64,000 nucleotides of DNA from an uncultured Candidatus Saccharibacteria bacterium (lineage in GTDB: Bacteria; Patescibacteriota; Minisyncoccia; Phycocordibacterales; UBA918): positions 86,480 to 150,479 of the forward strand of contig CAYOAM010000003.1 in NCBI GenBank assembly GCA_964402035.1, written 5' to 3'. The notes beneath the pieces are model-generated. The model saw only the letters and a program-made list of their open reading frames with translations, had not been told where the DNA came from and ran no database searches. The position numbers and the translations under genes are program-made. Below, in pieces: positions 363-60,493 of this stretch (positions are counted from its first letter, which is position 1; every line of letters starts with the position of its first letter).

Positions 363-363
363 A

Positions 364-1275
364 TCAATAGATGAAGCGACCCAAAAGCTCCGATACGAGG
401 AGAAATACGTCGACCGAGAGAAACTGCACCAACAGAAAGCCGACGATGAGAAACGGAGCAAATGGTATCTCACTTTTCATTGTAAGTGCGTTCCGAAATA
501 AACGTAAGTGCATTTGTCCCCTATTGTGTAGGGCGCGCGCACAGCGAACAAGACCCAAAAGTGTGAGGCCAACCGCTGCACCAATCCAAAACGACAGCAT
601 AATCATCGAAAGAACACCCGGCCATCCAACAATAAACCCGAGTGGTATCGCCAGTTTTGCATCTCCAAATCCCACCCACCTGCCCTTCGAAACAAACCAC
701 AAAAATGCAAAGAAGAGAAAACCAACTGCTCCACCGAGAAGGTGGTATGCCAGCATGTACACATCGGGGAGAAGGAAAAAATCTGTTGCCATAATAAGTA
801 TCCCCGTAATACTCGTAAGAATGATGAATTCATCAGGGATAATCGTATGAAGCATGTCGTAGACGATGATGAGCACTAACGCCGATATCAGTATGAGATG
901 CGGAAAGATTGATATACCCGAGAATGTATACGCAACAAAGAGAAACAGTAGTCCTGTCAAGAGTTCAACAGCGCTATAGCGGAGTGAAATGCGTGCGCCA
1001 CAATGTCCACAGCGCGCACGGAGTGCTAGGTATGAAAAAACGGGTACCAAATGCCACCACCGTAAATCCTTGCCACAGGAAAGACACCGTGACCTTCCCT
1101 GCAATGTCTTTCCGGTATGCAGTCGATACACCACCACATTGAGAAAACTCCCGATGATGAGCCCAAGGAGAAAAAAGAAAATGTAGCACCATACACTGAA
1201 TACGCCTTCGAGCGGTGCCAGCGGCGACACTCGAACTGATTCATATACTGCAGCTACAAGTCCTTCAAACATCAC
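364..1275 (-). CDS. pilD: Prepilin peptidase (A24 family)
   Basis: 303 aa, multi-TM, with the cytoplasmic Cys motif CLSCGKDLRWWHLVPVFSYLALRARCGHCGARI typical of PilD/GspO. Confidence 0.85.
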   Translation of the reverse strand: MMFEGLVAAVYESVRVSPLAPLEGVFSVWCYIFFFLLGLIIGSFLNVVVYRLHTGKTLQGRSRCLSCGKDLRWWHLVPVFSYLALRARCGHCGARISLRYSAVELLTGLLFLFVAYTFSGISIFPHLILISALVLIIVYDMLHTIIPDEFIILTSITGILIMATDFFLLPDVYMLAYHLLGGAVGFLFFAFLWFVSKGRWVGFGDAKLAIPLGFIVGWPGVLSMIMLSFWIGAAVGLTLLGLVRCARALHNRGQMHLRLFRNALTMKSEIPFAPFLIVGFLLVQFLSVDVFLLVSELLGRFIY

Positions 1276-1307
1276 TATATTTTACAGTACCATTGTACTT
1301 TCCCGAA

Positions 1308-1348
1308 TGAATAAGAAAATCAAAGGCATCCGTATTAGGATGCCTTTC
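1308..1348 (-). terminator. Rho-independent terminator-like hairpin downstream of first pilin gene
   Basis: 10-bp stem AAAGGCATCC/GGATGCCTTT with 6-nt loop, followed on the minus strand by a U-rich tract. Confidence 0.4.
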
Positions 1349-1399
1349 GCTTTAGTACATACACTATACAGTTTGCGTAGCCATGCTCTATAGAAAAAA

Positions 1400-1819
1400 C
1401 TATGGTCCGCAGACGTAGTCTAATGCAAGCGGATCTCCAGAGACAGAGGATGCAACGGAAATAACAGCGTTGCCTGCACTATCAACACAATAGTAGTCTG
1501 TAGATCCCTTTAATTGTGCCTCGAGTGCCCATAAATCGACATCTTCAACGCAGGTTTGACTTGGACTTCCAACAGTAACGGCGCCATTAATAAAAGTAAG
1601 TATTTTTGGATCAGTACAAAGCCCTACATAGGTATTGGCTATTTCATAAAATAATTGCCCTTGAGACCGCGCACTCTGAATATTTGATTTAATAGCAGCG
1701 TCTGCAGCCTTTGTGCGTGCCGTGTTTAAAGAAGCCAGCACAACCGACGCCAAGATACCAATAATTGCAATCACGACAAGGAGTTCGATAAGGGTAAACC
1801 CTTTAATTCTATTATTCAT
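1400..1819 (-). CDS. Type IV pilin (major pilin candidate)
   Basis: 139 aa. N-terminus MNNRIKG/FTLIELLVVIAIIGILASVVLASL is a canonical prepilin cleavage/methylation motif. Confidence 0.85.
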   Translation of the reverse strand: MNNRIKGFTLIELLVVIAIIGILASVVLASLNTARTKAADAAIKSNIQSARSQGQLFYEIANTYVGLCTDPKILTFINGAVTVGSPSQTCVEDVDLWALEAQLKGSTDYYCVDSAGNAVISVASSVSGDPLALDYVCGP

Positions 1820-1929
1820 AATAAGTTACTGATCTTACTCTTAATAATAACATGTCCGATACCCATGGAAATACAGACGTGTGCATGTCTAAATATAATT
1901 TTTATATCAACAGATTGTATAACTCACAA

Positions 1930-1962
1930 AACAGCAAAAAAACCGCTTTCGCGGTCTTTTTG
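1930..1962. terminator. Bidirectional terminator-like hairpin between the two pilin genes
   Basis: ACCGC-TTTC-GCGGT hairpin flanked by an A-run and a T-run. Confidence 0.4.
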
Positions 1963-1983
1963 TTTCTTGTTGCTTACTACCAA

Positions 1984-2475
1984 TTATTCAACACAAGCAC
2001 CTGCCGCAACCTCTGCCGTTACGCCAGCCTGATCATTTGTGGCTATAGTCACTTGTTTCGACTTGCCAGTACTGTCAACACACCAACCTGTGAGTGGGTT
2101 GGTTTTTAATTGCGTCACGACTGCATAAGCAGCTTGATTGGCACTCGAACTGCAAGCATTTAGCCCTGCACTCGCAGCCTTAGCACTGTTGATCAACGTC
2201 AATACTTGGGGTTCCGCAAAAATAGCATCAGCCGACGCTGCGCAAGCACCAGCTGCAATTGCAGCAGCTGCGCAAGCACCAGCACCATCCCCATAACAAC
2301 TTCCTCGGTCAAACTCTATCTCAGCTTGAGAGCGTATTGCTGACATTTCTGACTTTACTTTTGCATCAGCACCCTTTGATCGTGCAGTATTGAGCGAAGC
2401 CAACACAACCGAAGCCAAGATACCGATAATAGCGATCACGACGAGGAGTTCGATAAGGGTGAAACCTCTTTTCAT
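1984..2475 (-). CDS. Type IV pilin, paralog of 1400..1819
   Basis: MKRG/FTLIELLVVIAIIGILASVVLASLNTARSKGAD... The N-terminal 35 aa are near-identical to the neighbouring pilin, with a divergent Ala/Cys-rich C-terminus. Start at the second Met (weak AAAGAG SD); the ORF could extend to 2499. Confidence 0.8.
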   Translation of the reverse strand: MKRGFTLIELLVVIAIIGILASVVLASLNTARSKGADAKVKSEMSAIRSQAEIEFDRGSCYGDGAGACAAAAIAAGACAASADAIFAEPQVLTLINSAKAASAGLNACSSSANQAAYAVVTQLKTNPLTGWCVDSTGKSKQVTIATNDQAGVTAEVAAGACVE

Positions 2476-2626
2476 ACTCTTTTTTATATTAATAGACATA
2501 ATTGATCTAGATGTTACTAAAACTCTTTATTAGCTAATGTTTACCACGAGTTTAGTGGTTCCCCCCATTATACGCCTTTCCCAACGGGTTTTCCGTTACC
2601 CTGTGGAAAACAAATCTTTTGTATGC

Positions 2627-3835
2627 CTAGATTCCCGAAGCAATATTGTAGATTGGCATCAAGATAGCGGAAAGGAGGATGCCGACACCGACACCGAGCG
2701 CTACAATCATGGCTGGCTCGATGAGGTTGATGACGGTATCAACGGCGTTGTTGACCTCACGACGATAGAACTTTGCCAAAGTCTCCAAAATCTTTGAAAG
2801 ATTGCCCGTCTCCTCACCCACCTTGATCATCTGCGACATCACGCCAGGGATTTCGGGAAATTCTCCGAAAGAATCAGATACTGACTTTCCCGCCTTCACA
2901 TCAGCAATCACATCTTCAAGCATGCTTCGATACACTTTGTTGCCAACAAGATCTGCCGTAATCTCAAGTGTTTGCACCATGGAAAGCCCACTCGCAAGGA
3001 GCGTTGAGAACGTGTCCGCTATGCGCGAAAGATAGAGTTTGGTGAAGAGATCTCCAATGTATGGCACCGATAACTTGAGTTCGTCGAGTGCTCGCGCACC
3101 CACCTCCGTGCGCACAAAGCGCCACAGCATCACGGCTCCGATACCTAAGAAAATAAGAATGAATACGATGTAACTGGTGAGAAAATGTGAGAGACCAATG
3201 ATTAATTTCGTGAATAACGGCAATTCCTGACTTGTACCTTCAATAATTTCCGCCAGGCGCGGGATCACCATCGTAAGCATCAGCACCATCACCGTAACAA
3301 AGGTAAAAATCACAAAGGCAGGATAGATGAGTGCGTTGCGTGCCTTGCTCATGACCTCGTACGTTCGGTCGAGGTTGTCTGCAAGCTGCATAAAGACTTG
3401 ATCAAGACGGCCCGACTCCTCACCGGCGCGCACCATGTTGACATAGAAAGATGAAAATGTGTCTGGGTGGCGATTGAGTGCTTTTGAAATGGTGCTTCCC
3501 CCTTGGATATCGTCCGCCACTTCGGTCAAGATACGCTGCAGCATGGGGTTTTCAGCTTCTGACGAGAGGAGACGAAATACGCGGAGCGCAGACACTTGTG
3601 CTTCAAAGAGGGTTGCTATTTGGCGTGAAAAAATAACAATTTCCTTGTTTGAAATGTGTTCGAGAAAGGTGAATTGGATATTTAAAATACCTGTTTTCTC
3701 TGCAAGAGGGTCGATGGCCGTTACGGTGTAGCCACGACGCTGGAGTGAACTGATGGCTACATCAATATTTGAGGCATCGATAGTGCCTTCACGCTTGCTT
3801 CCTTCCTTATCTAGTGCTTTGTAACTAAAAAGCAT
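2627..3835 (-). CDS. pilC: Type IV pilus inner-membrane platform protein (GspF family)
   Basis: 402 aa with a duplicated GspF-like domain architecture and 3-4 TM segments. Confidence 0.9.
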   Translation of the reverse strand: MLFSYKALDKEGSKREGTIDASNIDVAISSLQRRGYTVTAIDPLAEKTGILNIQFTFLEHISNKEIVIFSRQIATLFEAQVSALRVFRLLSSEAENPMLQRILTEVADDIQGGSTISKALNRHPDTFSSFYVNMVRAGEESGRLDQVFMQLADNLDRTYEVMSKARNALIYPAFVIFTFVTVMVLMLTMVIPRLAEIIEGTSQELPLFTKLIIGLSHFLTSYIVFILIFLGIGAVMLWRFVRTEVGARALDELKLSVPYIGDLFTKLYLSRIADTFSTLLASGLSMVQTLEITADLVGNKVYRSMLEDVIADVKAGKSVSDSFGEFPEIPGVMSQMIKVGEETGNLSKILETLAKFYRREVNNAVDTVINLIEPAMIVALGVGVGILLSAILMPIYNIASGI

Positions 3836-3838
3836 ATG

Positions 3839-4909
3839 TTACAGGAGTCGTTTTAGTGACTTTGGGTTGACCGAGTACGCAAAAGCATTTTCAACGGTAA
3901 TCTCGCCTTTGTGTACCAATTCTGCCAATGAGCGATTCATCTCGATCATGCCGTGCTCAGAGCCAGTCTCAATGACAGTATTGACCTCGTGAGTACGTCG
4001 CTCGCGAATGAGGTTTGCGACCGCACTGTTGTTGATCAAAAGCTCGTACGCAGGGATAAGCCCACCCGCAATGCGGGGCACAAGACGTTGTGAGAAGATA
4101 CCCAAAAGTGAACCTGCGAGCTGGACACGGATCTGGTCCTGCTGACCTGCAGGGAATGAGTCGATAATACGATCAATGGTTTGTGCGGCGCTGTTGGTGT
4201 GGAGTGTTGAAAGGACCAGGTGCCCTGTTTCAGCAGCAGTCACAGCAGTCCCAATAGTCTCAGGAGAGCGCATTTCTCCCACCATAATGACGTCGACGTC
4301 TTGGCGAAACGCCGAATGGAGCGCTGCATGAAAATCGACCGTATCGACACGTACTTCACGCTGGTCGATGAGTGAGCGTTTTGGCTCAAAAATGTACTCG
4401 ATCGGATCTTCGATGGTGACAATATGTTCTGCCTTGGAGCTATTGATAATATCGACCATCGCCGCAAGTGTCGTCGATTTGCCTTGTCCCACTGGACCCA
4501 CACAGAGAAAGAACCCTTGTGGACGCGCAGCAAAACTCTCGAGGATCGGCGGCAGTGCAAGCTCAGTCAACGTGCGGATCTTGTTCGGGATATGACGAAG
4601 AGCGACCGATACGCCGCCACGCTGGAAAAAACCATTGCCACGAAAACGAACACCATCGCGATATGCATATGAAAAATCGACTTCTTTGGTTGCCAAGAAA
4701 TCTTTCATCTGCTCCTCATTGAGAAAAACCTCAACAAAGCCCATAGCATCCGCTTCGGTCAAGACTGGTTTTTTGAGAAGCGGAATCAATGACCCCGAGA
4801 CACGGATCATAGGATGACTCCCGACTGAAAGGTGCAAGTCAGAACCACCTTCAGACACGACAATGTCAATTAGTTCATCACGCTCCCCTTTGTAATCAAC
4901 GCTCGACAT
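3839..4909 (-). CDS. pilT: Twitching-motility retraction ATPase
   Basis: 356 aa, Walker A GPVGQGKSTT, Asp box and His box. Short PilT-type protein without the GspE N-terminal domain. Confidence 0.9.
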   Translation of the reverse strand: MSSVDYKGERDELIDIVVSEGGSDLHLSVGSHPMIRVSGSLIPLLKKPVLTEADAMGFVEVFLNEEQMKDFLATKEVDFSYAYRDGVRFRGNGFFQRGGVSVALRHIPNKIRTLTELALPPILESFAARPQGFFLCVGPVGQGKSTTLAAMVDIINSSKAEHIVTIEDPIEYIFEPKRSLIDQREVRVDTVDFHAALHSAFRQDVDVIMVGEMRSPETIGTAVTAAETGHLVLSTLHTNSAAQTIDRIIDSFPAGQQDQIRVQLAGSLLGIFSQRLVPRIAGGLIPAYELLINNSAVANLIRERRTHEVNTVIETGSEHGMIEMNRSLAELVHKGEITVENAFAYSVNPKSLKRLL

Positions 4910-4911
4910 AA

Positions 4912-5298
4912 TTATTCTTTCTTTTTCTTATGGGCAAAGACTGATTTTACTTGGGCGACAACTTCACTCGGAATCACATTTGCTTTGATAATGTACCCGT
5001 CAGCGCCTAATGCTTTTGCCTCTTCGACATCTTCTTTCTCACCCTGGTTTGAAAGGACAATACACACCGGATCTGCACCGAGCGACTCGGACTTTATGGC
5101 ACGCAAAAGATCCATGCCATTGAGATGCGGCATGATCATATCCAGAAGTACAATGTCGTATGTTTTTCCTCCACGCAATTTTGAAAGTGCTTCTTCAACA
5201 CTCTTTGAGGTGTCTACATTAAACTCAGACTCGCCAAACTTGACCGCGTACATATCGAGTAAAAAAGAATCATCGTCAACGATCAGAATTTTTTCCAT
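4912..5298 (-). CDS. Single-domain response regulator (CheY-like receiver)
   Basis: MEKILIVDDDSFLLDMY...DIVLLDMIMPHLNGMDLL...GYIIK receiver signature. Start chosen at the internal Met, 7 nt after the pilB stop. Confidence 0.75.
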   Translation of the reverse strand: MEKILIVDDDSFLLDMYAVKFGESEFNVDTSKSVEEALSKLRGGKTYDIVLLDMIMPHLNGMDLLRAIKSESLGADPVCIVLSNQGEKEDVEEAKALGADGYIIKANVIPSEVVAQVKSVFAHKKKKE

Positions 5299-5305
5299 AT
5301 AAATA

Positions 5306-7126
5306 TTATACTGCTTCAGCCGCAATATCTCGAGTAATGTTATCGACACGTGCTTGAGCCTTCTCTTCTTCTGCTTCAGGGTCTTCTGCCAAAAGCGCTC
5401 CACCCAGAGAATTTATCTCTTCAAAGGGAATCTCATGATTCATCGCTTTAATCATCGCATCTTCGCGCATGGAGATAAAACCATGTGCGCGTGCAACTTT
5501 GTACATCTCTTCTTCTGAACCACCTTTCAAGATGAGCTGCTCAAGTTCATCCGTAATCTCAAATGCCTCCATGACCGCCATACGTCCACGTGTACCATTG
5601 GGACATTCTTTGGTGGCAGCTGCACGAAGCACGCTCATAGAGCTCGGTATAATCCCCCGATGCTCTGCGGGCAAATCGACAAACTGCGCGTCGATCATTG
5701 CCTTGAGGCTGCCCTTGAGCGACAACTCTTTTCCTGAATTAGGACAGATCTTTTTTACCAATCGCTGCGCCATAGCGAGTATCAATGTCGGTGCAATAAG
5801 ATACGGATCAACACCCATGTCGATCAGGCGCGGTACCACACCAATACTGTTGTTGGTGTGAATCGTTGAAAGTACTAAATGTCCGGTGAGCGCAGCTTGG
5901 ATCGCGAGCTGCGCCGTCTCTTTATCGCGGATTTCTCCCACCATGATAATGTCGGGGTCCTGACGCAAGACAGTACGAAGTCCGTTGGCAAACGTATAGC
6001 CAATCTCGGGACGCATCTGCGACTGACTCACGCCATCGATCTTGTACTCAACCGGATCCTCGAGCGATATCACATTTTTTCCAATCCGATCAACCTCATT
6101 TAGCATGGCGTAGAGCGTCGTAGATTTTCCCGAACCGGTAGGTCCTGAAATAAGGACAATGCCATACGGCTGGCGTACCGCCTTCTTTATGAGGTCAAGC
6201 TGGTACTTGGAGATACCAATGTCTTCCAAGGTGCGTACCCCACTCTCCGGGTCCAAAATACGCATCACGACCTTTTCGCCGTACTGTGTAGGGAGTGTCG
6301 AAACACGAAAATCAATCTTTCGATTGTCGATGGTCGCTGAAAAGCGTCCGTCTTGTGGTTTGCGCTTTTCGTCAAGGCGCAAGGACGAGAGAATTTTGAC
6401 ACGTGCCACGATCGCCGTCTGCACTTTCATAGGAAGTTCAATGCTCGTAGCCAGCACACCATCGACACGAAAACGTACACGTACTTTTTCTTCCGTTGGT
6501 TCGATATGAATATCCGAAGCATGGCCATCGACGGCGTAACGGAGAATCGTCGCCACGATACGAGTCACCGGTGCATCTTCCTTGATGATCTCTTTGGCAT
6601 TACCGGGTGTTTTCTCTTCTTCTTTTTCGCGTGTACGCTCCTCTGATTCGCTCGTGAGCTCTGTTTCAAGGTCAGTCAAAGCCTCGTCGACCTCTCCGGT
6701 GATATTGGCATACATTTCAAGCACTTTTTCCAAATCTTGCTCCAAAATGAGCATGAGCTTGTAGGGCAAGGCATTTTTTGATGATATGAAGTTTAAGGCA
6801 TCAAGAGCAGTGAGGTTATCGGGGTCTGTGACCCCAACTTCCAATACCCCATCTTTCTCTTCGAGCGGTACCAGGCGGTAGTGTCTCGCAGACTCCTCCG
6901 GTAAATAGCGCAAAATAGCTGGAGCAATTTTTTCCTGTGGCTGCAACCTTCGTGTCGGTAATCGATAGTATTCTCCTAATGCCGCCAGAAGCACATCGGG
7001 GTCAATGCCATTTTTCATGAGCGCACTCTCTAGTTTTGCGCTATTACCACCCGACTCAGCCAAAACAGCATCCGCAACCTCCTGCGTTAAAAGATTCTTC
7101 TCTTTGAGAGTATCGAGGATATGCAT
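5306..7126 (-). CDS. pilB: Type IV pilus assembly (extension) ATPase, GspE family
   Basis: 606 aa with N-terminal T2SSE_N-like domain, Walker A GPTGSGKSTT and GspE His/Asp boxes. Confidence 0.9.
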   Translation of the reverse strand: MHILDTLKEKNLLTQEVADAVLAESGGNSAKLESALMKNGIDPDVLLAALGEYYRLPTRRLQPQEKIAPAILRYLPEESARHYRLVPLEEKDGVLEVGVTDPDNLTALDALNFISSKNALPYKLMLILEQDLEKVLEMYANITGEVDEALTDLETELTSESEERTREKEEEKTPGNAKEIIKEDAPVTRIVATILRYAVDGHASDIHIEPTEEKVRVRFRVDGVLATSIELPMKVQTAIVARVKILSSLRLDEKRKPQDGRFSATIDNRKIDFRVSTLPTQYGEKVVMRILDPESGVRTLEDIGISKYQLDLIKKAVRQPYGIVLISGPTGSGKSTTLYAMLNEVDRIGKNVISLEDPVEYKIDGVSQSQMRPEIGYTFANGLRTVLRQDPDIIMVGEIRDKETAQLAIQAALTGHLVLSTIHTNNSIGVVPRLIDMGVDPYLIAPTLILAMAQRLVKKICPNSGKELSLKGSLKAMIDAQFVDLPAEHRGIIPSSMSVLRAAATKECPNGTRGRMAVMEAFEITDELEQLILKGGSEEEMYKVARAHGFISMREDAMIKAMNHEIPFEEINSLGGALLAEDPEAEEEKAQARVDNITRDIAAEAV

Positions 7127-7145
7127 ACCACGATCACACTAGACA

Positions 7146-7451
7146 CTACTTCTTTTTTGGGTTGACCGGCAAGAATGGATTCTCACGCCCAGCGTCTTCT
7201 GGGATGTCAGGTTTGCGAATATCATCAAGTGAAGTGAACCGAGGATCGCTAAGAACATCACCTTTGAGCTCTATAGCTTTGAGCTGCTGCAGGGTTGCAA
7301 GAAATTCTTGTGCGCTCAACAGTGCCTCGCTCGTCGCAGCACCACTCACGGACGTCGCCGCATCATCAGTCTGAATAAAGACAACATACCCAAGATAGAG
7401 AATGACTGCGAGGCCGAGAGCGAGTAGTAAGTTACGAATGAGTCCTGACAT
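7146..7451 (-). CDS. Small membrane-anchored hypothetical protein in pilus operon (PilP-like position)
   Basis: 101 aa, N-terminal TM helix, Ser/Ala-rich. Synteny only; no family recognised. Confidence 0.45.
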   Translation of the reverse strand: MSGLIRNLLLALGLAVILYLGYVVFIQTDDAATSVSGAATSEALLSAQEFLATLQQLKAIELKGDVLSDPRFTSLDDIRKPDIPEDAGRENPFLPVNPKKK

Positions 7452-7454
7452 AGA

Positions 7455-8054
7455 TTATTTTGCTACACTGTTTACAAATGCATAGGTACGAAGTGTGATA
7501 TCGAATGTCATAAGATCACCTTCTGAGGCAGTAAATGTGAGATCCGTGACATCCAAAAACACCAGACTTTTTTCAAGATCGATCATCAGGGCGCGAAAAT
7601 CCTCGTACGTACCAAGAAGCCCAAGCTTAATATCGCGCGACGTATAGTGCTTTGGCACTTCTCCTTCAGGAGTAACGCCAACACTTGCTTCCGCAGCTGC
7701 TGCAGCGCGGCTACCCTTTGGAGCAACTTCCTTTGATTTTTCAACACTCACACTCGTGAGTGAGATTTTATGCATTCGCGTGAGCTCGTCCAAGTCTCGC
7801 ACGAGCGCTACTTCCTTGACCTCTGTCGGCAACATGGTCTTGAGGTTATCCATCGCCACCGGATCAAAACTCTTCATAAGATTGATTTTTCGCACCAACT
7901 CAGCTTGAAGAGCATCAGCTTGCTGTATGGCTTCGTCATATTCTGCCGACTGTTTCTGCACCTCCTTTACCGATTCAAACGTCGGTTTGATATACGTAAA
8001 ACCGAGACCGATGGCGATCAAGATTGCGATAATAGGTGCTAGTGCTTTAAACAT
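7455..8054 (-). CDS. pilO: PilO-like pilus assembly protein
   Basis: 199 aa, N-terminal TM helix then coiled coil. Position between pilN and pilB. Confidence 0.6.
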   Translation of the reverse strand: MFKALAPIIAILIAIGLGFTYIKPTFESVKEVQKQSAEYDEAIQQADALQAELVRKINLMKSFDPVAMDNLKTMLPTEVKEVALVRDLDELTRMHKISLTSVSVEKSKEVAPKGSRAAAAAEASVGVTPEGEVPKHYTSRDIKLGLLGTYEDFRALMIDLEKSLVFLDVTDLTFTASEGDLMTFDITLRTYAFVNSVAK

Positions 8055-8055
8055 A

Positions 8056-8742
8056 TTATGGATTTTGTACTTCGGTCACGGGAACCGTATCTGTCACAGG
8101 GTTTGGATCAAGGATGTCACCCTCATTTTCCTCTATATCTGGCAATACCTCGTAAGCCACAGCCTTTGGATCGAGTTCGGATGATACCTTAAACGTAATT
8201 TTGTCGTCTTCTTCGTCCTCGCCGGGCGTTATGGTTAAATCAGAAAAAATGAGGGAGCCCTCCTCAAACGATTTTTCTTCCTTGAACCCACGCTCTTGAA
8301 GGACGATGGTATTAAAGGTCGGTCCTGAACCAGCAAGCGCTACTTTTGCGGTACCAGATTCTTCACGTTTGAAACTAAAGCTAGTGAGCTCAACCTTTCC
8401 TTGTGTGCGCACCTCCAAGGCATCAAAAAGTCGTGTTAGTGAGAGATGCTGATTGAGGAGCAGATTCGCCGTTTGAAACTTATAGTCAAGATTGCGAATT
8501 TCCTCAATATTGGTCTGAGGAAATTTTGAGCGTTTTTCCGTAAGCGCTATTTTTTTTGCGGCCAAATCGTCCGCATTGTACTTTTTGTAAAAGAAGACCC
8601 CGACCGAAAGAGCGAGTGTTGCCAAAAAAATGGTCGTTGAGATAAAGGTGAGTACGTTGAAACTGCGGTGTTGACGTGAACCGCCAGCTGCGGGACCTGC
8701 AGACTGCTTTGGAATGAACGATGTTTGCGGAGTTGGAGGCAT
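8056..8742 (-). CDS. pilN: PilN-like pilus assembly protein
   Basis: Single TM, coiled coil, acidic C-terminus. Start set at internal Met 8742 (MPPTPQTS...); the longer ORF to 8835 would run into the palindrome. Confidence 0.6.
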   Translation of the reverse strand: MPPTPQTSFIPKQSAGPAAGGSRQHRSFNVLTFISTTIFLATLALSVGVFFYKKYNADDLAAKKIALTEKRSKFPQTNIEEIRNLDYKFQTANLLLNQHLSLTRLFDALEVRTQGKVELTSFSFKREESGTAKVALAGSGPTFNTIVLQERGFKEEKSFEEGSLIFSDLTITPGEDEEDDKITFKVSSELDPKAVAYEVLPDIEENEGDILDPNPVTDTVPVTEVQNP

Positions 8743-8791
8743 TGTTACCAGTATAAAGATAATGTGTCTGTATTGATAGCAAACGATGTGG

Positions 8792-8841
8792 ACATGAATG
8801 CACGGTGTGCCAAAATATTTTGGCACACCGTGCATTCATGT
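8792..8841. promoter_or_regulatory. 50-bp perfect palindrome in the pilM-pilN intercistronic region
   Basis: ACATGAATGCACGGTGTGCCAAAAT|ATTTTGGCACACCGTGCATTCATGT, verified base by base. No flanking U-run. Confidence 0.6.
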
Positions 8842-8969
8842 AGATAATTCTAAGCACACTAAAAATTTCAGATACGAGGCGCCAAGGAACGAGGACCCGA
8901 GTCGTACCTGATGTACGGTGAGCGGTACGAGTGACGATGGTAACGACGTAGATGGATTTTTTGGTGTGC

Positions 8970-10076
8970 TTAGCGTTCAGAAAGTCGTCGGAGCGCAGCA
9001 CCAACAGCAACAGCAAACGAGGGTCCGATTGTTTTTAAGGTATCTTGAAGAAATGCAGGATATTCAACTTTTGCAAAGGGATCGGCATTAAGAATCCGAC
9101 GACCGAGTACATTTTGTGCATACTCCGCAACGCCCGCGAGCGTTGCTCCACCACCTGAAAGCATCACGGACGACACTGGTACGGCTCCGTTGGTACGCTC
9201 GTATGCCTCAAGCAAGCGTCGAGACTCGATAAACATACGTTCGAGCGGCAAACTGAGCGCACGCTCAATCCGCGGATTCTCATGCGCCAAAAGTCCCACT
9301 TGACGCTTCATTTCTTCAGCATCAGATATAGTGAGTTCGAGAGACTTTGAAAGAGCCGACGTGAGATCTTGTCCACCCACTGTAATACTGTGTGTTGCCT
9401 GCACAATACCTCCGGCCACGACATAGAGTTTTGTTGTTGCGGCACCGATGTCCATAATAAGTATGGTCTCATCAATCTTTTGCACGCTCGAACGGATGGT
9501 ACTAAAGACTTCTATTTCGTTAAAACTCGAAAGCATCCCCGCCCCCTCGATCACCGTCTTAAATTTGCTCAGCGCTTCATTGTGAATAGCGGCCAAGAGT
9601 ACACGAGTTGTTGTCACTCGCCCCGCTGATTCAGCCCCATTTTTATTAGGCACCACAAACCAATCGAGCGTCACCTGCGAGACGGGCACTGGCACATATT
9701 TGCGGGCTTCAATCGGTATCATCGCCTCAAGGAGTGCCGGATCCTCAACCTGGAGTGAAATCACCGTCACGAAACTTGCAGCATACGGGACCGCAACACC
9801 AACGTTGCGGCTTGTGACAGATGCTTCTCGTACAATATCCAACAGCGCCTCCGTTGTTTTTCCCGGCTCAAGATTGGTGGCACGACCGACGTCCACGTTT
9901 GCATACGGCCCAAGCTGCAGTTCTCCATACGTCTCCAAAACCGCTCGCTGATGCTCGCGACGTAGTTGCACAATCTTTATAGAAGAAGAACCAAAATCAA
10001 TACCAACGACACTACCGCCATGCGCAGGCGCGGCGGCATTAAATAATTTACCGAGTGACTTAAAAGACAGATCCAT
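8970..10076 (-). CDS. pilM: Type IV pilus assembly protein PilM (actin-like ATPase fold)
   Basis: 368 aa with N-terminal GIDFGSSSIKIVQL and the PilM/FtsA-like fold signature. First gene of the operon. Confidence 0.85.
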   Translation of the reverse strand: MDLSFKSLGKLFNAAAPAHGGSVVGIDFGSSSIKIVQLRREHQRAVLETYGELQLGPYANVDVGRATNLEPGKTTEALLDIVREASVTSRNVGVAVPYAASFVTVISLQVEDPALLEAMIPIEARKYVPVPVSQVTLDWFVVPNKNGAESAGRVTTTRVLLAAIHNEALSKFKTVIEGAGMLSSFNEIEVFSTIRSSVQKIDETILIMDIGAATTKLYVVAGGIVQATHSITVGGQDLTSALSKSLELTISDAEEMKRQVGLLAHENPRIERALSLPLERMFIESRRLLEAYERTNGAVPVSSVMLSGGGATLAGVAEYAQNVLGRRILNADPFAKVEYPAFLQDTLKTIGPSFAVAVGAALRRLSER

Positions 10077-10131
10077 CTCAAAAACATTTTAACACGCAAA
10101 TAGCAACATTCGATCAAAAAACACGTAGTAT

Positions 10132-10755: not shown

Positions 10756-10799
10756 GCATCTTTCAAAAACCTATGCTATTCTAGGCGAATACAAATTTT

Positions 10800-10814
10800 G
10801 GAGACGTGGCTGAG
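10800..10814 (+). repeat. Duplicate of the first 15 nt of tRNA-Ser (GGAGACGTGGCTGAG), 103 nt upstream of the intact gene
   Basis: Exact 15/15 match to positions 10918-10932, followed by a long imperfect hairpin (GTGGCTGAG...CTCAGCCAC). Confidence 0.6.
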
Positions 10815-10917
10815 CTGGGTGAGAAAGAAATAATCTTCTTTCGAACCGACACATCGTGTCGGACCACTCAGCCACGGAACCGCGCAAGCGGGCTTCATTT
10901 GAACAAAGTGAATATAT

Positions 10918-25391: not shown

Positions 25392-25402
25392 GATAACGCA
25401 AT

Positions 25403-27639: not shown

Positions 27640-28017
27640 ATGCCAGAAAAAGCAAAAATACTGATTGTTGATGATGCAAAGGACCTCAGTGATGCCATTG
27701 GTGATATTTTGCAGTTTAAAGGCTATCAGACTATAGTCGCGCACGACGGCGCGAGCGCCATCACGATCGCACTTGAAGAACATCCTGACCTTATCCTACT
27801 CGATCTTCGTATGCCGGGACTAACCGGTTTTGATGTCATTCGAAAACTCCACGAAGATGATTGGGGAAAGACCGTCAAGATACTCATGCTCACCGCCGTA
27901 GATCGCGTTGATGAAATCCCTGCTGATATCGATATCAAACCTGAAGACTATCTCATGAAATCACGCTGGGGAATCGACAATATTGCACAGCGGATCGAAA
28001 AGAAGCTTGCTGAATAA
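27640..28017 (+). CDS. Single-domain response regulator (receiver only)
   Basis: ILIVDDAKDLSDAIGDIL...DLILLDLRMPGLTGFDVI...LMLTA. Confidence 0.8.
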   Translation: MPEKAKILIVDDAKDLSDAIGDILQFKGYQTIVAHDGASAITIALEEHPDLILLDLRMPGLTGFDVIRKLHEDDWGKTVKILMLTAVDRVDEIPADIDIKPEDYLMKSRWGIDNIAQRIEKKLAE

Positions 28018-28030
28018 CTAGAACATCTTA

Positions 28031-28076
28031 AAAACCCCGCGAGTGCCCTGGGCACTCGCGGGGTTTTTGTTTTTTA
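28031..28076. terminator. Strong bidirectional terminator
   Basis: CCCCGCGAGTGCC-CT-GGGCACTCGCGGGG followed by TTTTTGTTTTTTATT. Confidence 0.7.
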
Positions 28077-28079
28077 TTG

Positions 28080-29354
28080 CTACTGCGGCAATGTCACTGT
28101 AAACGTGGTGCCAATATTTTGTGCCGATATGAACGCAATCTTGCCCCCCAACACCTTTACCGCCTCTGAGACTACATAGAGCCCCAACCCAGTACCATCA
28201 GGGACATCCTTCATCGCATTGCTCGCACGGAACATCTTGGTAAACAATTTGTCTTGCTCATCCTGTGGTATACCCATACCCGAGTCCGCGACGGTGATGA
28301 TTGATGACTTGCCCGTATGAACGACGGACACTCGGACTGCACTACCCTCACGAGAATATTTAATGGCGTTTGAAACCAAGTTCCCGACAATCATGCGCAG
28401 CAAGTGAGCATCCGAAAGAAATGGTGTTGTCGTAGCCGCATAGTCTTTCTCCAGCGAAATATGCTTGTCATGTGCCCGTCCCATATGCTCATCCAACACA
28501 CCGTCAAAAAAGGCTACTGGATCTATTTTTATTTTATCCGCAACAAGTGTCCCTAATTCAAAGCGTGACACATTGAGAAAATCATCGACAAGTGCTTCCA
28601 TGCGACCGACACTGACCGTCGCCTTGCTCACATATACTTTTGCCTCCTCGCTTACTTGCGTACCAAACTTTGCAAGCAGGAGCTCTAGATTCCACTTCAT
28701 GGCAGCAATCGGTGTGCGCAACTGATGCGAAGCAAGCGAGACAAACTCTGTCTTAGCTCGATCTATCTCCTTTTGTTTGGTCATATCAACAAGCGTTAAA
28801 AGTCCCTTTTGTGCGCCGGACGCATCTCTAAATGAAAAGAGCGACAACAGCACCCACCGCTCTGCCCCATCTAAGCGTGTGATACGAACTTCTTCGTCGT
28901 TTACTGAGAGTCCCTGCTTAAGCTTCGCCGCAAACAGTGAAATATGCTGCTCATTTTCACCAGAAATTAAGGAAAAGATATTTTTACCAACGATCTCTTC
29001 TTTTGTCGTATTAAATAAACGAAATGTCGAAAAGTTTGCTGACGTAATCTGTCCATCCACCTCAATCAACAGATACGGGACTGGGCTGCTTTTATATACT
29101 TCAGAAAAGAGCTCATGGGATTCCGTAAGAAGATCCTCTGTCATATGGACCGCAATCTTTTCTGCATCATGTGAGATGCGCAGTGACTGAAATACACCTA
29201 CAGCAATAAGCGCAATACAGAAAAAAACAAGCCCGACAAACAATTTCTGAAAATCGAGCGCCGCTATATCGACACTCATCCACAAAGCCCCTGCACCAGC
29301 ACAGAGGAGTAAAAGTGTAGCGAGCGCAATACTTAACGCCTTCAGATTTCCCAT
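28080..29354 (-). CDS. Sensor histidine kinase with PAS domain
   Basis: Two N-terminal TM helices, PAS-like segment, HisKA H-box SHQLRTPIAAM and HATPase_c G-boxes GTGLGLYVV. Confidence 0.85.
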   Translation of the reverse strand: MGNLKALSIALATLLLLCAGAGALWMSVDIAALDFQKLFVGLVFFCIALIAVGVFQSLRISHDAEKIAVHMTEDLLTESHELFSEVYKSSPVPYLLIEVDGQITSANFSTFRLFNTTKEEIVGKNIFSLISGENEQHISLFAAKLKQGLSVNDEEVRITRLDGAERWVLLSLFSFRDASGAQKGLLTLVDMTKQKEIDRAKTEFVSLASHQLRTPIAAMKWNLELLLAKFGTQVSEEAKVYVSKATVSVGRMEALVDDFLNVSRFELGTLVADKIKIDPVAFFDGVLDEHMGRAHDKHISLEKDYAATTTPFLSDAHLLRMIVGNLVSNAIKYSREGSAVRVSVVHTGKSSIITVADSGMGIPQDEQDKLFTKMFRASNAMKDVPDGTGLGLYVVSEAVKVLGGKIAFISAQNIGTTFTVTLPQ

Positions 29355-56852: not shown

Positions 56853-56855
56853 ATA

Positions 56856-57476
56856 TTAAAATCTAGTTTTTAGATTGCGAGGTGCAGCGCTCGAGTTTAT
56901 TTTAAATTCACCAGGCGTCTGAATAGGGTTCACATTCACAATCATATTCACTTCAATATACCGTATATCGGTGATACTCGTCGTTGCAACTGCAGCACTC
57001 CCATTCTCAAGAAAATATAAAAACGTCGATGTGGCCTGTTCACCATTGCGAATATACTCCGAAATAGTGATGTGTTCATCAGGTGTCGTTGAACTATAAC
57101 CCACCGGTGTTCCTGTCGCATTATAAATATCCTTGTACAACGTGGTTGTGGCGAGATAGTAGCGAACATACTCGACGCTATTATCTCGATCAATATCACT
57201 ATAAAACGCAATCGTGCTGGTACCCATGAGAACCAACGGATACGTACCATCATCCCCGTAGGTCATTTCACGAAGATCGCGCGTAATCAGTGCCATACCC
57301 CGTCGTCCATTACTCACTTCATAGGTCTGCGCTATTGTGTATGCATTGGTTTTATATAAATAGTTAATCGAGGAAAAAATTGCAAGTATCGTGATCGTAA
57401 AGAGAGAGACGGTGACGACCACCTCAACAAGAGTGAAGCCGGTACGATGACTACGGTGTAAAAGAAACGTGCTCAT
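56856..57476 (-). CDS. Minor pilin / pseudopilin
   Basis: HRSHRTG/FTLVEVVVTVSLFTITILAIF prepilin motif; 206 aa. Confidence 0.7.
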   Translation of the reverse strand: MSTFLLHRSHRTGFTLVEVVVTVSLFTITILAIFSSINYLYKTNAYTIAQTYEVSNGRRGMALITRDLREMTYGDDGTYPLVLMGTSTIAFYSDIDRDNSVEYVRYYLATTTLYKDIYNATGTPVGYSSTTPDEHITISEYIRNGEQATSTFLYFLENGSAAVATTSITDIRYIEVNMIVNVNPIQTPGEFKINSSAAPRNLKTRF

Positions 57477-59227
57477 GGTGTAAGGACGATGACGTTTTGC
57501 TGCATACCACTGACTGAGAGCGGCGAGAGTGAATACGAAGTATATCCGGGAGCAGACACGTCGACGGTATACCCCACTGCGTTTGACATACCGCTAAAAA
57601 AAGTCTGTCCGCACGCTGACGATGTTTCTGTTTTATCAAATACTCCAGCATGCACACGTACGGTCGCGCCAGGAATCGATGCCCCTACTGCAGTGCGTAC
57701 ATGCACACGAAGGGAGTGTGTTGTATGAGGCTCGAGTATTAAAGTCGTGGTAGCTGCAACGCCAGGACTTAAAGCAAATGGCGTCACTGGACAAGCATCG
57801 CTAATATCGTACCCTTCGGCTTGACCATTGATCGAAATATCATATTGGTCCCATTCTAAATTATTGATTTGTACGACACCACTTGCATTAGTGGTGTGCG
57901 TTTTAGAATATTTCAAAACGGGAACTCCAAAAGTATCCGTACCAATATTTTTTGTCCCCTCAAGTGTGAACGTTATATCGGGAATAGGTACGTTTGCCAT
58001 CATGTACGAGAATCGCCATTCATGAACCTGAGGCGTGGCACTTCCATCAAGACTTTGCAAAACCGCCCCAATAGCAAGACGTGGATACGTCGCGACTGGC
58101 AACGTCGCAAGATCAACAGGACTCACGGTCAATCCCGCACTATTGCCAGGCAGATCACTATCTGGAATGAGCGTATACGCACCCGATCCATCCACTGCAT
58201 ATATATAGTATGCTGTTTGTGTTTGTGGATTCAAAACTTCAGACCATTCTGCACGCTCCCATGAAAGCAGCGAGGAAGCAGCTGGCTCAACTACAGTACT
58301 TGTTGCACTTCCCTCTGCTGCATACACGCCAAGCACATTGGTGAGTACCAAATCTCCCCCAAGGGCTTCAACAGATGATGACGATACGGTACCAGTCATA
58401 TCAGGAAATAATCTTGACGTTGTTTGCTCAGTCGGTGGCTCTACCGTCTTTACAGCAAGCGTACTGACCCGATCTATACCAAGATTGACTGTCGAAACAC
58501 CATTTGCTACGACCGCAACATGTGGTGGATTTGGATTTGGGTTCGATGTCGAGGCACTATATGTTTGATCCAAAGAATACCCTACTGCTGTAGCGCTCAC
58601 TTCATATCCACCTGACGCAGGTGCGCCGGGAAACATGGTAATCCCTGCAATGTTCGTGTACGAAGTCACATCGATTGTCGAAGTGGTCGTGTTGTTTACA
58701 ATCCGCACTGCTGCGCCGTCAACCGGTGCAGCTACCGCATCGAATACATTAACAACCAAGGTCCCTCCACCCGCCAGTGTTTCAATTCCTGGCGGGATCA
58801 AGTTCGTAATGAGCGCCACTTCATGAGGGACCCCTTTTATCGTCCACGACACCTCAACTTTTGCACGTTTATAATCGGCAGCAATGCCATTGCTATCAGC
58901 AACACCAGAACCATCCGATGGATCATCAACATATTGAACCAACACGCGTCGATTATATGAAATCCCATTAAGGTCTACAGTCGAATTCTGTGGAATAAGT
59001 CCAGCAGGAATACCCGCAACAGTGCCGACAGAGTCGTATGGAAGACCATGCATGTACTCAAGGTACTTGTTTGCAATCCCAACCGCGCCTGCTTGCGCAC
59101 GCGTCTGTGAACTTACTGCAAGCGTATATTGAAAAACGGTAAAAAGAGCGCCAAACACCACAAGCATGAGTGCAGAAGCAACCAGCACCTCGACAAGTGT
59201 CATGCCTCGCGTGCGGTGATTTTGCAT
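57473..59227 (-). CDS. Large minor pilin (PilV-like N-terminus with about 550-aa extracellular domain)
   Basis: MQNHRTRG/MTLVEVLVASALMLVVFGAL prepilin motif. Start chosen at a Met that avoids overlap with pilC2; the ORF extends to 59278. Confidence 0.6.
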   Translation of the reverse strand: MQNHRTRGMTLVEVLVASALMLVVFGALFTVFQYTLAVSSQTRAQAGAVGIANKYLEYMHGLPYDSVGTVAGIPAGLIPQNSTVDLNGISYNRRVLVQYVDDPSDGSGVADSNGIAADYKRAKVEVSWTIKGVPHEVALITNLIPPGIETLAGGGTLVVNVFDAVAAPVDGAAVRIVNNTTTSTIDVTSYTNIAGITMFPGAPASGGYEVSATAVGYSLDQTYSASTSNPNPNPPHVAVVANGVSTVNLGIDRVSTLAVKTVEPPTEQTTSRLFPDMTGTVSSSSVEALGGDLVLTNVLGVYAAEGSATSTVVEPAASSLLSWERAEWSEVLNPQTQTAYYIYAVDGSGAYTLIPDSDLPGNSAGLTVSPVDLATLPVATYPRLAIGAVLQSLDGSATPQVHEWRFSYMMANVPIPDITFTLEGTKNIGTDTFGVPVLKYSKTHTTNASGVVQINNLEWDQYDISINGQAEGYDISDACPVTPFALSPGVAATTTLILEPHTTHSLRVHVRTAVGASIPGATVRVHAGVFDKTETSSACGQTFFSGMSNAVGYTVDVSAPGYTSYSLSPLSVSGMQQNVIVLTP

Positions 59228-59240
59228 ATTAAACATATGG

Positions 59241-60470: not shown

Positions 60471-60493
60471 AAAAAGATATTTAGTAAATATGT

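What the first reader, a model, noticed from the sequence alone, without database searches (positions are those of the whole stretch)
4912..5298. CheY-like receiver gene wedged between pilB (extension ATPase) and pilT (retraction ATPase)
A stand-alone receiver domain sits 7 nt after the pilB stop and 2 nt before the pilT start. It carries the conserved phospho-acceptor Asp context LLDMIMP, with the Asp pocket DDD at the N-terminus. No cognate kinase is adjacent.

In Pseudomonas, PilG/PilH receivers tune the PilB/PilT balance through the Chp chemosensory system. Embedding the receiver directly between the two motors suggests a hard-wired switch between extension and retraction.
Basis: partly seen in the sequence, partly recalled or inferred. 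Interest (0 to 1): 0.55.

Follow-up and report, generated by a model that had tools for sequence, protein, structure and literature searches.

The report
Orphan receiver inside Parcubacteria pilus operon
A small, intact CheY-like signal receiver sits between the pilus extension and retraction motor genes of an ultra-small (Parcubacteria) bacterium, and the same layout recurs across that group, so it is probably an undescribed built-in regulator of their retractable pili.

Summary
A 128-aa stand-alone receiver is encoded on the minus strand at 5298..4912. It lies 7 nt after pilB and 2 nt before pilT. It matches Pfam Response_reg and gives a confident (βα)5 model. The acidic pocket, D53, S83 and K105 are all intact.

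It is not a remnant or a chance neighbour. The order pilM-N-O-x-pilB-RR-pilT-pilC holds in all 16 species genomes that carry a close homolog. It also holds in 33 of 53 metagenomic loci found through PilT alone, mostly named Parcubacteria-group lineages.

The family has its own hallmarks. Kinase-docking helix residues F12/L13/M16/Y17/K20 are invariant, and K105 is followed by Ala rather than Pro. No histidine kinase lies within 4-5 kb in any pilus locus examined.

The receiver is tied more closely to pilT than to pilB. Spacing to pilT is tighter, and a conserved TATAAT lies 6-8 nt before its ATG, suggesting a leaderless RR-pilT-pilC transcript. A second pilB2/pilC2 locus in the window lacks both PilT and a receiver.

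My best reading is a phosphorylation-dependent regulator of the retractile pilus motor. Target, kinase and direction of effect are inferred, not shown. The "hard-wired switch" idea is only partly supported.

The parts
4912..5298 (-). Stand-alone CheY-like receiver (128 aa plus stop). Key residues: D8/D9(/D10), D53, S83, Y102, K105, A106.
   Evidence: ORF, Pfam. (family invariants). (AF2 model, pLDDT 90.2). (fold matches RR468 and CheY).
5305..5310 (-). Perfect TATAAT box 6 nt upstream of the receiver ATG, overlapping the pilB stop codon. Predicted -10 element of a leaderless internal promoter.
   Evidence: best promoter-like hit in 1-11000, 10/12; a perfect TATAAT lies 3-12 nt upstream in 19 of 37 related loci, against a 0.66% background (P~6e-32). 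Shine-Dalgarno-like motif in only 4 of 61. The leaderless reading follows PMC3160421. Function is inferred.
5306..7126 (-). pilB, the extension ATPase (606 aa, MshEN + T2SSE).
3839..4909 (-). pilT, the retraction ATPase (356 aa). It starts 2 nt after the receiver stop.
   Evidence: (TIGR01420, 427 bits, above cut-off).
2627..3835 (-). pilC, the platform protein (402 aa, T2SSF x2). It starts 3 nt after pilT.
8970..10076 (-). pilM (368 aa).
7146..8742 (-). Three genes: pilN-like (8742..8056), pilO (8054..7455) and a conserved 101-aa ORF (7451..7146).
   Evidence: weak PilO hit. (gene calls). (conserved order in related loci).
364..2499 (-). Two prepilin genes (2499/2475..1984 and 1819..1400), each followed by a terminator-like hairpin, and prepilin peptidase pilD (1272..364).
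27640..29354 (.). The only histidine kinase found in the window (PAS-HisKA-HATPase, 29354..28080, minus strand) and a second stand-alone receiver, RR2 (27640..28017, plus strand). A possible but doubtful phosphodonor for the pilus receiver.
   Evidence: kinase homologs sit next to RR2-like receivers in other genomes. RR2 is 25% identical to the pilus receiver.

Best explanation
The gene encodes a functional, phosphorylatable single-domain response regulator. It is a lineage-specific accessory of the retractile type IVa pilus system of Parcubacteria-group (Patescibacteria) bacteria.

Proposed mechanism:
1. It is made together with PilT and PilC. Their genes are tightly spaced, and in the window's clade a conserved -10 box may start a leaderless transcript at the receiver ATG.
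2. A conserved histidine kinase encoded elsewhere phosphorylates D53.
3. The phosphorylated receiver binds a cytoplasmic motor component through its conserved alpha4-beta5-alpha5 face (Y102, K105, A106, P110-S111-E112-V113). PilT is the most likely target; PilB, PilC or PilM are alternatives.
4. Binding shifts the balance between pilus extension and retraction.

Shown here: gene integrity, fold, catalytic residues, family-specific invariants, conserved synteny, absence of a nearby kinase, and the conserved TATAAT.

Inferred: phosphorylation, identity of the kinase, the binding target and the direction of the effect.
For: **Intact receiver**
- Pfam Response_reg scores 74 bits.
- The AF2 model has pLDDT 90.2 and a (βα)5 fold.
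- TM-score is about 0.86 to RR468 and CheY.
- Among the 120 closest homologs, D9, D10, D53 and K105 are invariant, D8 is present in 119, and position 83 is Ser in 110 and Thr in 10.

**Dedicated to pili**
- All 16 species genomes with a homolog of at least 42% identity have pilB-RR-pilT. None of the other 64 receiver loci recovered by the same scan do.
- 33 of 53 PilT-seeded metagenome loci with at least 1500 nt upstream of pilT have it.
- Four further contexts agree.

**Conserved partner surfaces**
- F12, L13, M16 and K20 align with the RR468 kinase-specificity positions V13, L14, I17 and N21 (alignment; mutant named).
- These positions are invariant or nearly so in the family, but variable in unrelated receivers.
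- A106 and P110-V113 are also invariant.

**Link to pilT**
- The receiver-to-pilT gap has a median of 5 nt (40 of 57 are 20 nt or less). The pilB-to-receiver gap has a median of 36 nt.
- Stop and start codons overlap by 4 nt in L166 and L167.
- The TATAAT box is conserved.
- The second pilB2/pilC2 locus lacks both PilT and a receiver.

**Precedents**
- The output-less regulator DrdR binds PilB and PilT and raises their ATPase activity (PMC13507683).
- Only phosphorylated PixG binds PilB1 and PilC (PMC11181946).
Against: - No interaction, phosphorylation or phenotype data exist for any family member.
- No cognate kinase was identified. The only kinase in the window is adjacent to a different receiver (RR2), whose specificity-position residues differ at three of four positions (D15/L16/A19/I23 against F12/L13/M16/K20). 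Homologs of that kinase sit next to RR2-like receivers elsewhere.
- The receiver was lost repeatedly in a sister clade, where RR+ and RR- loci are interspersed in the PilT tree. The pilus therefore works without it.
- Attempts to find a receiver-specific feature in PilB or PilT failed.
- The TATAAT signal is absent from subfamily B (0 of 24), so the transcriptional argument holds only for the window's clade.
- In the window alone, the promoter scan found no more hits than shuffled sequence gives.
Confidence: 0.55

Rival explanations
1. Same kind of regulator, different target. The phosphorylated receiver acts on the extension side or on the platform (PilB, the PilC N-terminus or PilM), recruiting or activating PilB as PixG~P does in Synechocystis. 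It does not act on PilT.
For: - The gene directly follows pilB, at 7 nt in the window and at 20 nt or less in 24 of 57 loci.
- PixG~P binds PilB1 and PilC.
- PilG promotes polar recruitment of PilB.
- DrdR binds both motors.
Against: - Coupling to pilT is tighter than to pilB.
- A pilin is inserted between pilB and the receiver in L106.
- The PilB2/PilC2 locus has no receiver.
- The acidic C-terminal tail of PilB is not specific to RR+ loci.
Confidence: 0.22
2. Phosphate sink or phosphorelay branch. The receiver has no direct motor target. It drains or buffers phosphoryl groups from a kinase whose real output is another receiver such as RR2. This is the role proposed for PilH and for CheY-type sinks.
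For: - It is a single domain with no output.
- A second single-domain receiver and a kinase are in the window.
- PilH has been suggested to act as a phosphate sink.
- PixH negatively regulates PixG phosphorylation.
Against: - Residues at the kinase-specificity positions differ from RR2 at three of four positions.
- A sink would not need strictly conserved placement in the pilus operon.
- A sink would not need an invariant alpha4-beta5-alpha5 face.
Confidence: 0.12
3. Phosphorylation-independent accessory subunit or assembly factor of the pilus motor that merely keeps a receiver fold, like the atypical receiver domains of TadZ/CpaE or the FimX REC domain.
For: - It has no nearby kinase in any locus.
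- K105 is followed by Ala rather than the usual Pro.
- The FimX REC domain works without the phospho-acceptor Asp.
Against: - D53 and K105 are invariant in all 120 closest homologs, the acidic pocket nearly so (D8 in 119), and position 83 is always Ser or Thr.
- D9, D10, D53 and K105 are also invariant in 58 operon-embedded receivers from both subfamilies.
- Pseudo-receivers normally lose these residues.
Confidence: 0.07
4. A passenger gene. It is a general signalling receiver that happens to sit in the pilus operon and has no pilus-related role.
For: It has been lost in about a third of related loci without loss of the operon.
Against: - The position is conserved in more than 60 loci across two receiver subfamilies with only about 35-40% identity between them.
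- Close family members were never found outside this context.
Confidence: 0.04

Closest known systems
PilG / PilH of the Pseudomonas aeruginosa Pil-Chp system
   Same: They are single-domain CheY-like receivers. Their phosphorylation state controls where and when the PilB and PilT motors act (review PMC11656802).
   Different: - PilG/PilH are encoded with a CheA-type kinase (ChpA), a chemoreceptor (PilJ) and adaptor genes. Here no CheA, CheW or MCP is found among the window's ORFs.
- Here the gene sits between pilB and pilT.
- No curated NCBIfam family reaches its cut-off.
- The family carries K-Ala instead of K-Pro and its own invariant alpha1 helix.
- No direct PilG/PilH-motor interaction has been reported.
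DrdR of Xanthomonas campestris (PMC13507683)
   Same: It is an output-less response regulator with no partner kinase nearby. It physically binds both PilB and PilT and modulates their ATPase activity. This is the closest functional precedent for the proposed mechanism.
   Different: DrdR has two receiver domains, one of them degenerate, and the paper describes it as an orphan regulator rather than a pilus-operon gene. The window protein has a single canonical receiver.
PixG / PixH / PixE of Synechocystis (PMC11181946)
   Same: Receiver phosphorylation gates binding to the pilus motor. Only phosphorylated PixG binds PilB1 and the PilC N-terminus, and the single-domain PixH antagonises it.
   Different: - PixG and PixE bind through an N-terminal PATAN domain, which the 128-aa window protein lacks.
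[quoted passage not shown]
Thermotoga maritima RR468 (PDB 3DGE/3GL9)
   Same: It is the closest solved structure by profile (E=7.5e-22) and by fold (TM 0.85-0.87, rmsd 1.5-1.9 Å). It is also a stand-alone receiver. Its kinase-specificity positions map onto the family's invariant alpha1 residues.
   Different: - Sequence identity is only 27-29%.
- The structures are complexes with its partner kinase HK853; no partner kinase is known for the window protein.
- RR468 has K-Pro and no link to pili.

Membership tests
Response regulator receiver domain (Pfam PF00072, CheY-like superfamily) | Profile match above the curated threshold | tested here: met
   74.4 bits against a cut-off of 30.2, E=1e-20.
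Response regulator receiver domain (Pfam PF00072, CheY-like superfamily) | (βα)5 Rossmann-like fold | tested here: met
   AF2 model with pLDDT 90.2 and five strand-helix units. Foldseek TM 0.85-0.87 to RR468 and 0.84-0.86 to CheY entries.
Response regulator receiver domain (Pfam PF00072, CheY-like superfamily) | Catalytic quintet: acidic pair, phospho-acceptor Asp, Thr/Ser, Lys | tested here: met
   D8/D9, D53, S83 and K105 are present in the window protein. Among 120 homologs D9, D53 and K105 are invariant, D8 is present in 119, and position 83 is always Ser or Thr. Actual phosphorylation cannot be tested here.
Response regulator receiver domain (Pfam PF00072, CheY-like superfamily) | Pro after the conserved Lys (K+1) | tested here: not met
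   A106 is invariant in 120 of 120 homologs. Among 57 aligned unrelated receivers, Pro is the commonest residue (27) and Ala occurs in 9. This is a common feature rather than a defining one, so it marks a variant and does not exclude membership.
PilG/PilH (Pil-Chp twitching-motility receivers) | Encoded in a chemosensory cluster with a CheA-like kinase, CheW and a methyl-accepting receptor | tested here: not met
   Neighbours are pilB and pilT. No kinase lies within 4-5 kb in about 75 pilus loci. No CheA, CheW or MCP domain is found in the window ORFs scanned. The rest of the genome was not available.
PilG/PilH (Pil-Chp twitching-motility receivers) | Ortholog-level sequence similarity | tested here: inconclusive
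   None of the 25 best of 88 NCBIfam hits is a PilG/PilH model, and all score far below their cut-offs. No authentic PilG/PilH sequence was compared directly.
PatA-type regulators (PixG/PixE) | N-terminal PATAN domain fused to the receiver | tested here: not met
   The protein is 128 aa with one Pfam domain covering residues 4-106. Homologs are 119-145 aa.
DrdR-type tandem-receiver regulators | Two receiver domains in one polypeptide | tested here: not met
   Single receiver domain.
Flagellar CheY | Equivalog-level match to CheY, with chemotaxis and flagellar genes present | tested here: not met
   NF007901 CheY scores 45 bits against a cut-off of 189. Patescibacteria lack flagellar assembly and chemotaxis genes (PMC7137472).
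Type IVa pilus operon (context) | PilM/N/O, PilB, PilT, PilC, prepilins and PilD encoded together | tested here: met
   The same order is found in related loci.

The most novel reading that the evidence does not exclude
The receiver is a stoichiometric, phosphorylation-controlled 'clutch' of a minimal pilus machine. It is made from the same leaderless message as PilT and PilC. It decides whether PilT or PilB occupies the single PilC/PilM platform.

This would give ultra-small episymbiotic bacteria, which have no chemosensory array and only a handful of two-component genes, a one-protein switch between pilus extension (host search) and retraction (attachment or DNA uptake). A single conserved orphan kinase would drive it.
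Probability: 0.2. Interest if true: 0.75.

Novelty: new variant of a known kind. Interest (0 to 1): 0.5.

Why it matters
Type IV pili are central to how Patescibacteria (CPR) live. They mediate host attachment, twitching and probably DNA uptake (PMC11623550). Yet these bacteria lack chemotaxis systems and keep only about five two-component genes (PMC7137472). How they control pilus dynamics is not known.

This work defines a large receiver family that I found described in no paper:
- Hundreds of clusters at 90% identity belong to it.
- Public sources annotate its members only as 'response regulator', 'CheY-like chemotaxis protein' or, wrongly, 'OmpR family'.
- It is embedded in the retractile pilus operon.

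That makes the question testable. The system has one small protein, one conserved Asp, three or four candidate partners and very few candidate kinases.

It would also be the first case I know of in which a single-domain receiver is encoded inside the pilB-pilT-pilC core. Known pilus-controlling receivers sit in separate chemosensory clusters.

Tried and rejected
1. **PilB C-terminal tail as a docking peptide.** I tested whether the acidic tail (window residues ~572-606) is specific to RR+ loci. Tails are variable and often absent in RR+ loci, and similar short tails occur in RR- loci. Rejected.
2. **Conservation contrast in PilT and PilB.** I looked for columns conserved in RR+ but variable in RR- loci. 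The few columns found are scattered, mostly not conserved in the other RR+ subfamily, and confounded by the greater diversity of the RR- set. Uninformative.
3. **Profile search of 1.84 billion representatives to size the family.** The top of the list is dominated by multi-receiver proteins whose summed scores outrank true family members. Not usable as a family count.
4. **The window's kinase as the cognate kinase.** It sits next to a different receiver (RR2). Its homologs sit next to RR2-like receivers carrying the 'EDSWGK' motif in other genomes. Residues at the specificity positions differ at three of four. Not excluded, but not favoured.
The ORF is complete, and homologs are stand-alone proteins of 119-145 aa. 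Only one related locus, L153, shows a frameshift. Rejected.
6. **Literature.** Five full-text searches combining CPR/Parcubacteria/Patescibacteria or pilus-cluster terms with response regulator/CheY and pilB/pilT found no description of this arrangement. The Saccharibacteria pilus paper does not mention a receiver.
7. **Promoter scan in the window alone.** The number of promoter-like hits equals the shuffled expectation. The TATAAT became meaningful only through its conservation across loci.

Full report
**1. What is there**

- The window's first 10 kb carry a complete type IVa pilus operon on the minus strand:
  - pilM (10076..8970)
  - a pilN-like gene (8742..8056)
  - pilO (8054..7455)
  - a 101-aa ORF (7451..7146)
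  - pilB (7126..5306)
  - the receiver (5298..4912)
  - pilT (4909..3839)
  - pilC (3835..2627)
  - two prepilins and pilD (1272..364)
- The receiver ATG lies 7 nt after the pilB stop, and the pilT ATG lies 2 nt after the receiver stop.
- PilT is a true PilT/PilU-family ATPase (TIGR01420, 427 bits against a cut-off of 319). PilB has MshEN and T2SSE domains.
It did not state that the gene is on the minus strand.

**2. The protein**

- The 128-aa product matches Pfam Response_reg (E=1e-20).
- With a 32-sequence alignment it folds into a canonical (βα)5 receiver, mean pLDDT 90.2.
- The nearest solved structures are Thermotoga RR468, CheY proteins and OmpR-family receiver domains. TM-scores are 0.77-0.87, and identity to the listed matches is at most 35%.
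- D8/D9 (acidic pocket), D53, S83 and K105 are all present. Y102 corresponds to the CheY switch aromatic residue; that assignment rests on my own knowledge of CheY.
- Among the 120 closest database homologs, the following are invariant or nearly so:
  - the catalytic residues above;
  - F12, L13, M16, Y17, K20 and F21 in helix alpha1;
  - N84, and A106 in place of the common Pro after the conserved Lys;
  - P110-S111-E112-V113 at the start of alpha5.
- In the profile alignment to RR468, F12/L13/M16/K20 fall on V13/L14/I17/N21. Those are the positions mutated to rewire RR468 kinase specificity (alignment; mutant named in the PDB titles).
- In 105 unrelated receivers from other loci these positions vary freely. 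After the Lys, Pro occurs 27 times and Ala 9 times among 57 aligned.
- My inference is that the whole family keeps one conserved partner on the alpha1 face, most simply one kinase family, and another on the alpha4-beta5-alpha5 face.

**3. The arrangement is conserved and specific**

- A pattern scan of one genome per GTDB species with the family alignment returned 80 loci.
- All 16 loci whose receiver is at least 42% identical to the window protein (L006-L020, L022) show pilM-N-O-(x)-pilB-RR-pilT-pilC.
  - They are labelled Paceibacterota, Nomurabacteria, Taylorbacteria, Kaiserbacteria, Parcubacteria group, or in some cases 'Saccharibacteria' by an automated pipeline.
- None of the other 64 loci, which carry generic receivers, shows this order.
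- Three database homologs at 100%, 58% and 51% identity give the same order.
- To avoid selecting on the receiver, I seeded a metagenome scan with the window's PilT:
  - Of 53 loci with at least 1500 nt upstream of pilT, 33 have pilB-RR-pilT and 20 have pilB directly next to pilT.
  - Every locus with PilT at least 60% identical and enough flank has the receiver.
- The embedded receivers fall into two subfamilies:
  - A, window-like: 'DDDxFLLDMY ... KAxxIPSEV'.
  - B: 'VEDDPFLIDIY ... KAHYTPSEV'.
  - Both share D9, D10, F12, Y17, D53, G61, N84, K105 and P110.
- Subfamily B is named Parcubacteria group, Nealsonbacteria or Pacebacteria where a name exists. It sits in the same operon, with its stop overlapping the pilT start by 4 nt.
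- Taylorbacteria and Nealsonbacteria both belong to the Parcubacteria group of Patescibacteria.
- In a neighbour-joining tree of PilT, the window's clade is RR+ with one exception. In a second clade RR+ and RR- loci are interspersed. That pattern implies an old acquisition followed by repeated loss.
- One locus has a frameshifted receiver (L153).

**4. Always without a nearby kinase**

- tblastn with the window's kinase found HisKA/HATPase kinases next to the generic receivers of many phyla. It found none within 4-5 kb in any pilus locus.
- In the window, an HMM and motif screen found only two receivers and one kinase. The kinase is a membrane PAS-HisKA-HATPase protein at 29354..28080. It converges on a second stand-alone receiver, RR2, at 27640..28017.
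- RR2 is 25% identical to the pilus receiver.
- RR2 carries D15/L16/A19/I23 at the four specificity positions.
- RR2-like receivers sharing the 'EDSWGK' motif sit right after homologs of this kinase in other genomes.
- The kinase is therefore more likely RR2's partner, and the pilus receiver's phosphodonor remains unknown.
- Pfam scans of most window ORFs, including all of 200 aa or more, found no CheA, CheW or methyl-accepting protein.

**5. Closer to pilT than to pilB**

Four independent observations point the same way.

1. Across 57 loci, the median receiver-to-pilT gap is 5 nt (40 are 20 nt or less). The median pilB-to-receiver gap is 36 nt (24 are 20 nt or less).
2. In L106 a pilin gene is inserted between pilB and the receiver, but the receiver stays next to pilT.
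3. The window holds a second pilus-like locus: pilB2 at 62242..60497 (37% identical to pilB), pilC2 at 60305..59244, and pilin-like genes downstream. It has neither a PilT nor a receiver. This two-system layout resembles that described for Saccharibacteria TM7x, where only locus one has PilT.
4. A perfect TATAAT lies on the coding strand at 5310..5305, overlapping the pilB stop codon, 6 nt before the receiver ATG.

On the TATAAT:
- Within the window it was the best promoter-like hit. However, the overall hit count equals the shuffled expectation, so the window alone proves nothing.
- Across loci the signal is strong.
  - 19 of 37 other subfamily-A loci have a perfect TATAAT 3-12 nt (mode 6-8) upstream of the receiver ATG, against a 0.66% background (binomial P about 6e-32).
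  - In seven of them the box overlaps the pilB reading frame or stop codon.
  - 24 of 37 have at least a 5/6 match, against 5.8% background.
- Shine-Dalgarno-like motifs are almost absent (4 of 61).
- A TANNNT box starting about 12 bp upstream of a start codon is the recognised signature of leaderless genes in bacteria (PMC3160421).
- Similar boxes precede pilM, pilD and the kinase gene in the window.
- I therefore infer, without proof, that in the window's clade the receiver is the first cistron of a leaderless RR-pilT-pilC transcript, nested inside the longer pilM-to-pilC unit.
- Subfamily B shows no such box (0 of 24). There, coupling to pilT is through overlapping or abutting codons.

**6. 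Mechanism**

- The best-supported reading is a phosphorylation-dependent, pilus-dedicated single-domain regulator. It would bind the motor, with PilT favoured and PilB, PilC or PilM as alternatives, and shift the extension/retraction balance.
- Precedents exist for each step:
  - DrdR, an output-less orphan regulator, binds PilB and PilT and raises their ATPase activity.
  - Only phosphorylated PixG binds PilB1 and PilC.
  - PilG and PilH control PilB localisation.
- Gene, fold, residues, synteny, absence of a nearby kinase and the cis element are shown here. Phosphorylation, kinase, target and direction of effect are inferred.
- Rival readings, in decreasing likelihood: a target on the extension or platform side; a phosphate sink; a phosphorylation-independent subunit; a passenger gene.

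**7. Comparison and novelty**

- The protein is a member of the receiver superfamily.
- It fails the defining features of PilG/PilH (chemosensory cluster), PatA-type regulators (PATAN domain), DrdR (tandem receivers) and CheY (equivalog score).
- Functionally it most resembles DrdR or PilG/PilH. By family it is a distinct, uncharacterised Parcubacteria clade.
- I found no paper describing it.
  - Published surveys note only that Patescibacteria keep about five two-component genes and no chemotaxis.
  - CheY-like genes are enriched in sediment-attached ultra-small genomes.
- I rate it a new variant of a known kind: a single-domain receiver controlling type IV pili, here built into the motor operon and apparently served by a classical rather than a CheA-type kinase.

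**8. Limits**

- Only 64 kb of a contig of about 462 kb was available, so kinases elsewhere in the genome were not seen.
- Taxon labels come from record titles.
- The PilT tree is a quick neighbour-joining tree.
- Start codons in related loci were assigned by alignment.
- Attempts to infer the binding partner from sequence contrasts gave nothing.

Noticed in passing
window 5305-5310 (minus strand); related loci L004-L018, L086-L107: A perfect TATAAT lies 6 nt before the receiver ATG and overlaps the pilB stop codon. It is conserved in 19 of 37 related loci (P~6e-32), and there is no Shine-Dalgarno motif. This suggests a leaderless internal promoter for RR-pilT-pilC. -10-like boxes 7-9 nt before the ATG also precede pilM, pilD and the kinase gene, so leaderless starts may be common in this genome.
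   Followed up: yes
window 5333-5341 (minus strand, inside the pilB 3' end); L004, L011, L018, L086, L088: The string (GT)CGATAAC, which encodes 'VDN' in the PilB C-terminal tail, lies about 28 nt upstream of the TATAAT. It is conserved at the nucleotide level, wobble positions included, in the window and five related loci. It could be a peptide motif or a regulator-binding site. Unexplained.
   Followed up: no
window 55437-62242 (minus strand): A second type IV pilus-like locus:
- pilB2 (62242..60497, 37% identical to pilB)
- pilC2 (60305..59244)
- a 593-aa pilin-like protein with N_methyl plus a CarboxypepD_reg domain (59254..57476)
- a 206-aa prepilin (57476..56859)
- a 472-aa protein with no Pfam match

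It has no PilT and no receiver. The layout parallels the two-system arrangement reported for Saccharibacteria TM7x.
   Followed up: partly
window 27640-29354: A membrane PAS-HisKA-HATPase histidine kinase (minus strand) converges on a second stand-alone receiver, RR2 (plus strand). RR2-like receivers with an 'EDSWGK' motif follow homologs of this kinase in other genomes (L043, L059). The pair is flanked by predicted surface proteins: a cohesin/dockerin-like protein at 26808-27563 and a thrombospondin type-3 repeat protein at 29410-30633.
   Followed up: partly
window 10144-10752 (+), 49222-50739 (-), 51221-52948 (-): DNA-uptake-related genes are present. A phosphoribosyltransferase-domain gene, which I read as ComF-like, is divergent from pilM, and this pairing is conserved in L001, L004, L166 and L167. 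ComEC (Competence domain) and RecJ are also in the window. This hints that the retractile pilus serves DNA uptake.
   Followed up: partly
window 7146-7451 (minus strand): A 101-aa ORF with no Pfam match sits between pilO and pilB. It is conserved in position, and weakly in sequence (27-49% identity), in several related loci. It may be an additional alignment-complex component.
   Followed up: no
window 1935-1962 and 1322-1347 (minus strand): Strong terminator-like hairpins with T-runs follow each of the two prepilin genes. This suggests separate, attenuated pilin transcripts upstream of pilD.
   Followed up: no
L153:1816-2200; L106:3125-3580; L122:3623-3991: Variants of the arrangement:
- L153 has a receiver split by one frameshift, which may be a pseudogene or an assembly error.
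- L106 has a pilin gene inserted between pilB and the receiver.
- L122 has a 370-nt AT-rich, repetitive non-coding gap where the receiver would be.
   Followed up: partly
window 24411-25392: SmpB (24411-24863) is immediately followed by tmRNA (24989-25392, Rfam 84.8 bits). This is an ordinary trans-translation pair.
   Followed up: no
database annotations of homologs: Many family members are labelled 'DNA-binding response OmpR family regulator' by one source, although they are 120-125 aa with no DNA-binding domain. This is a systematic mis-annotation.
   Followed up: no
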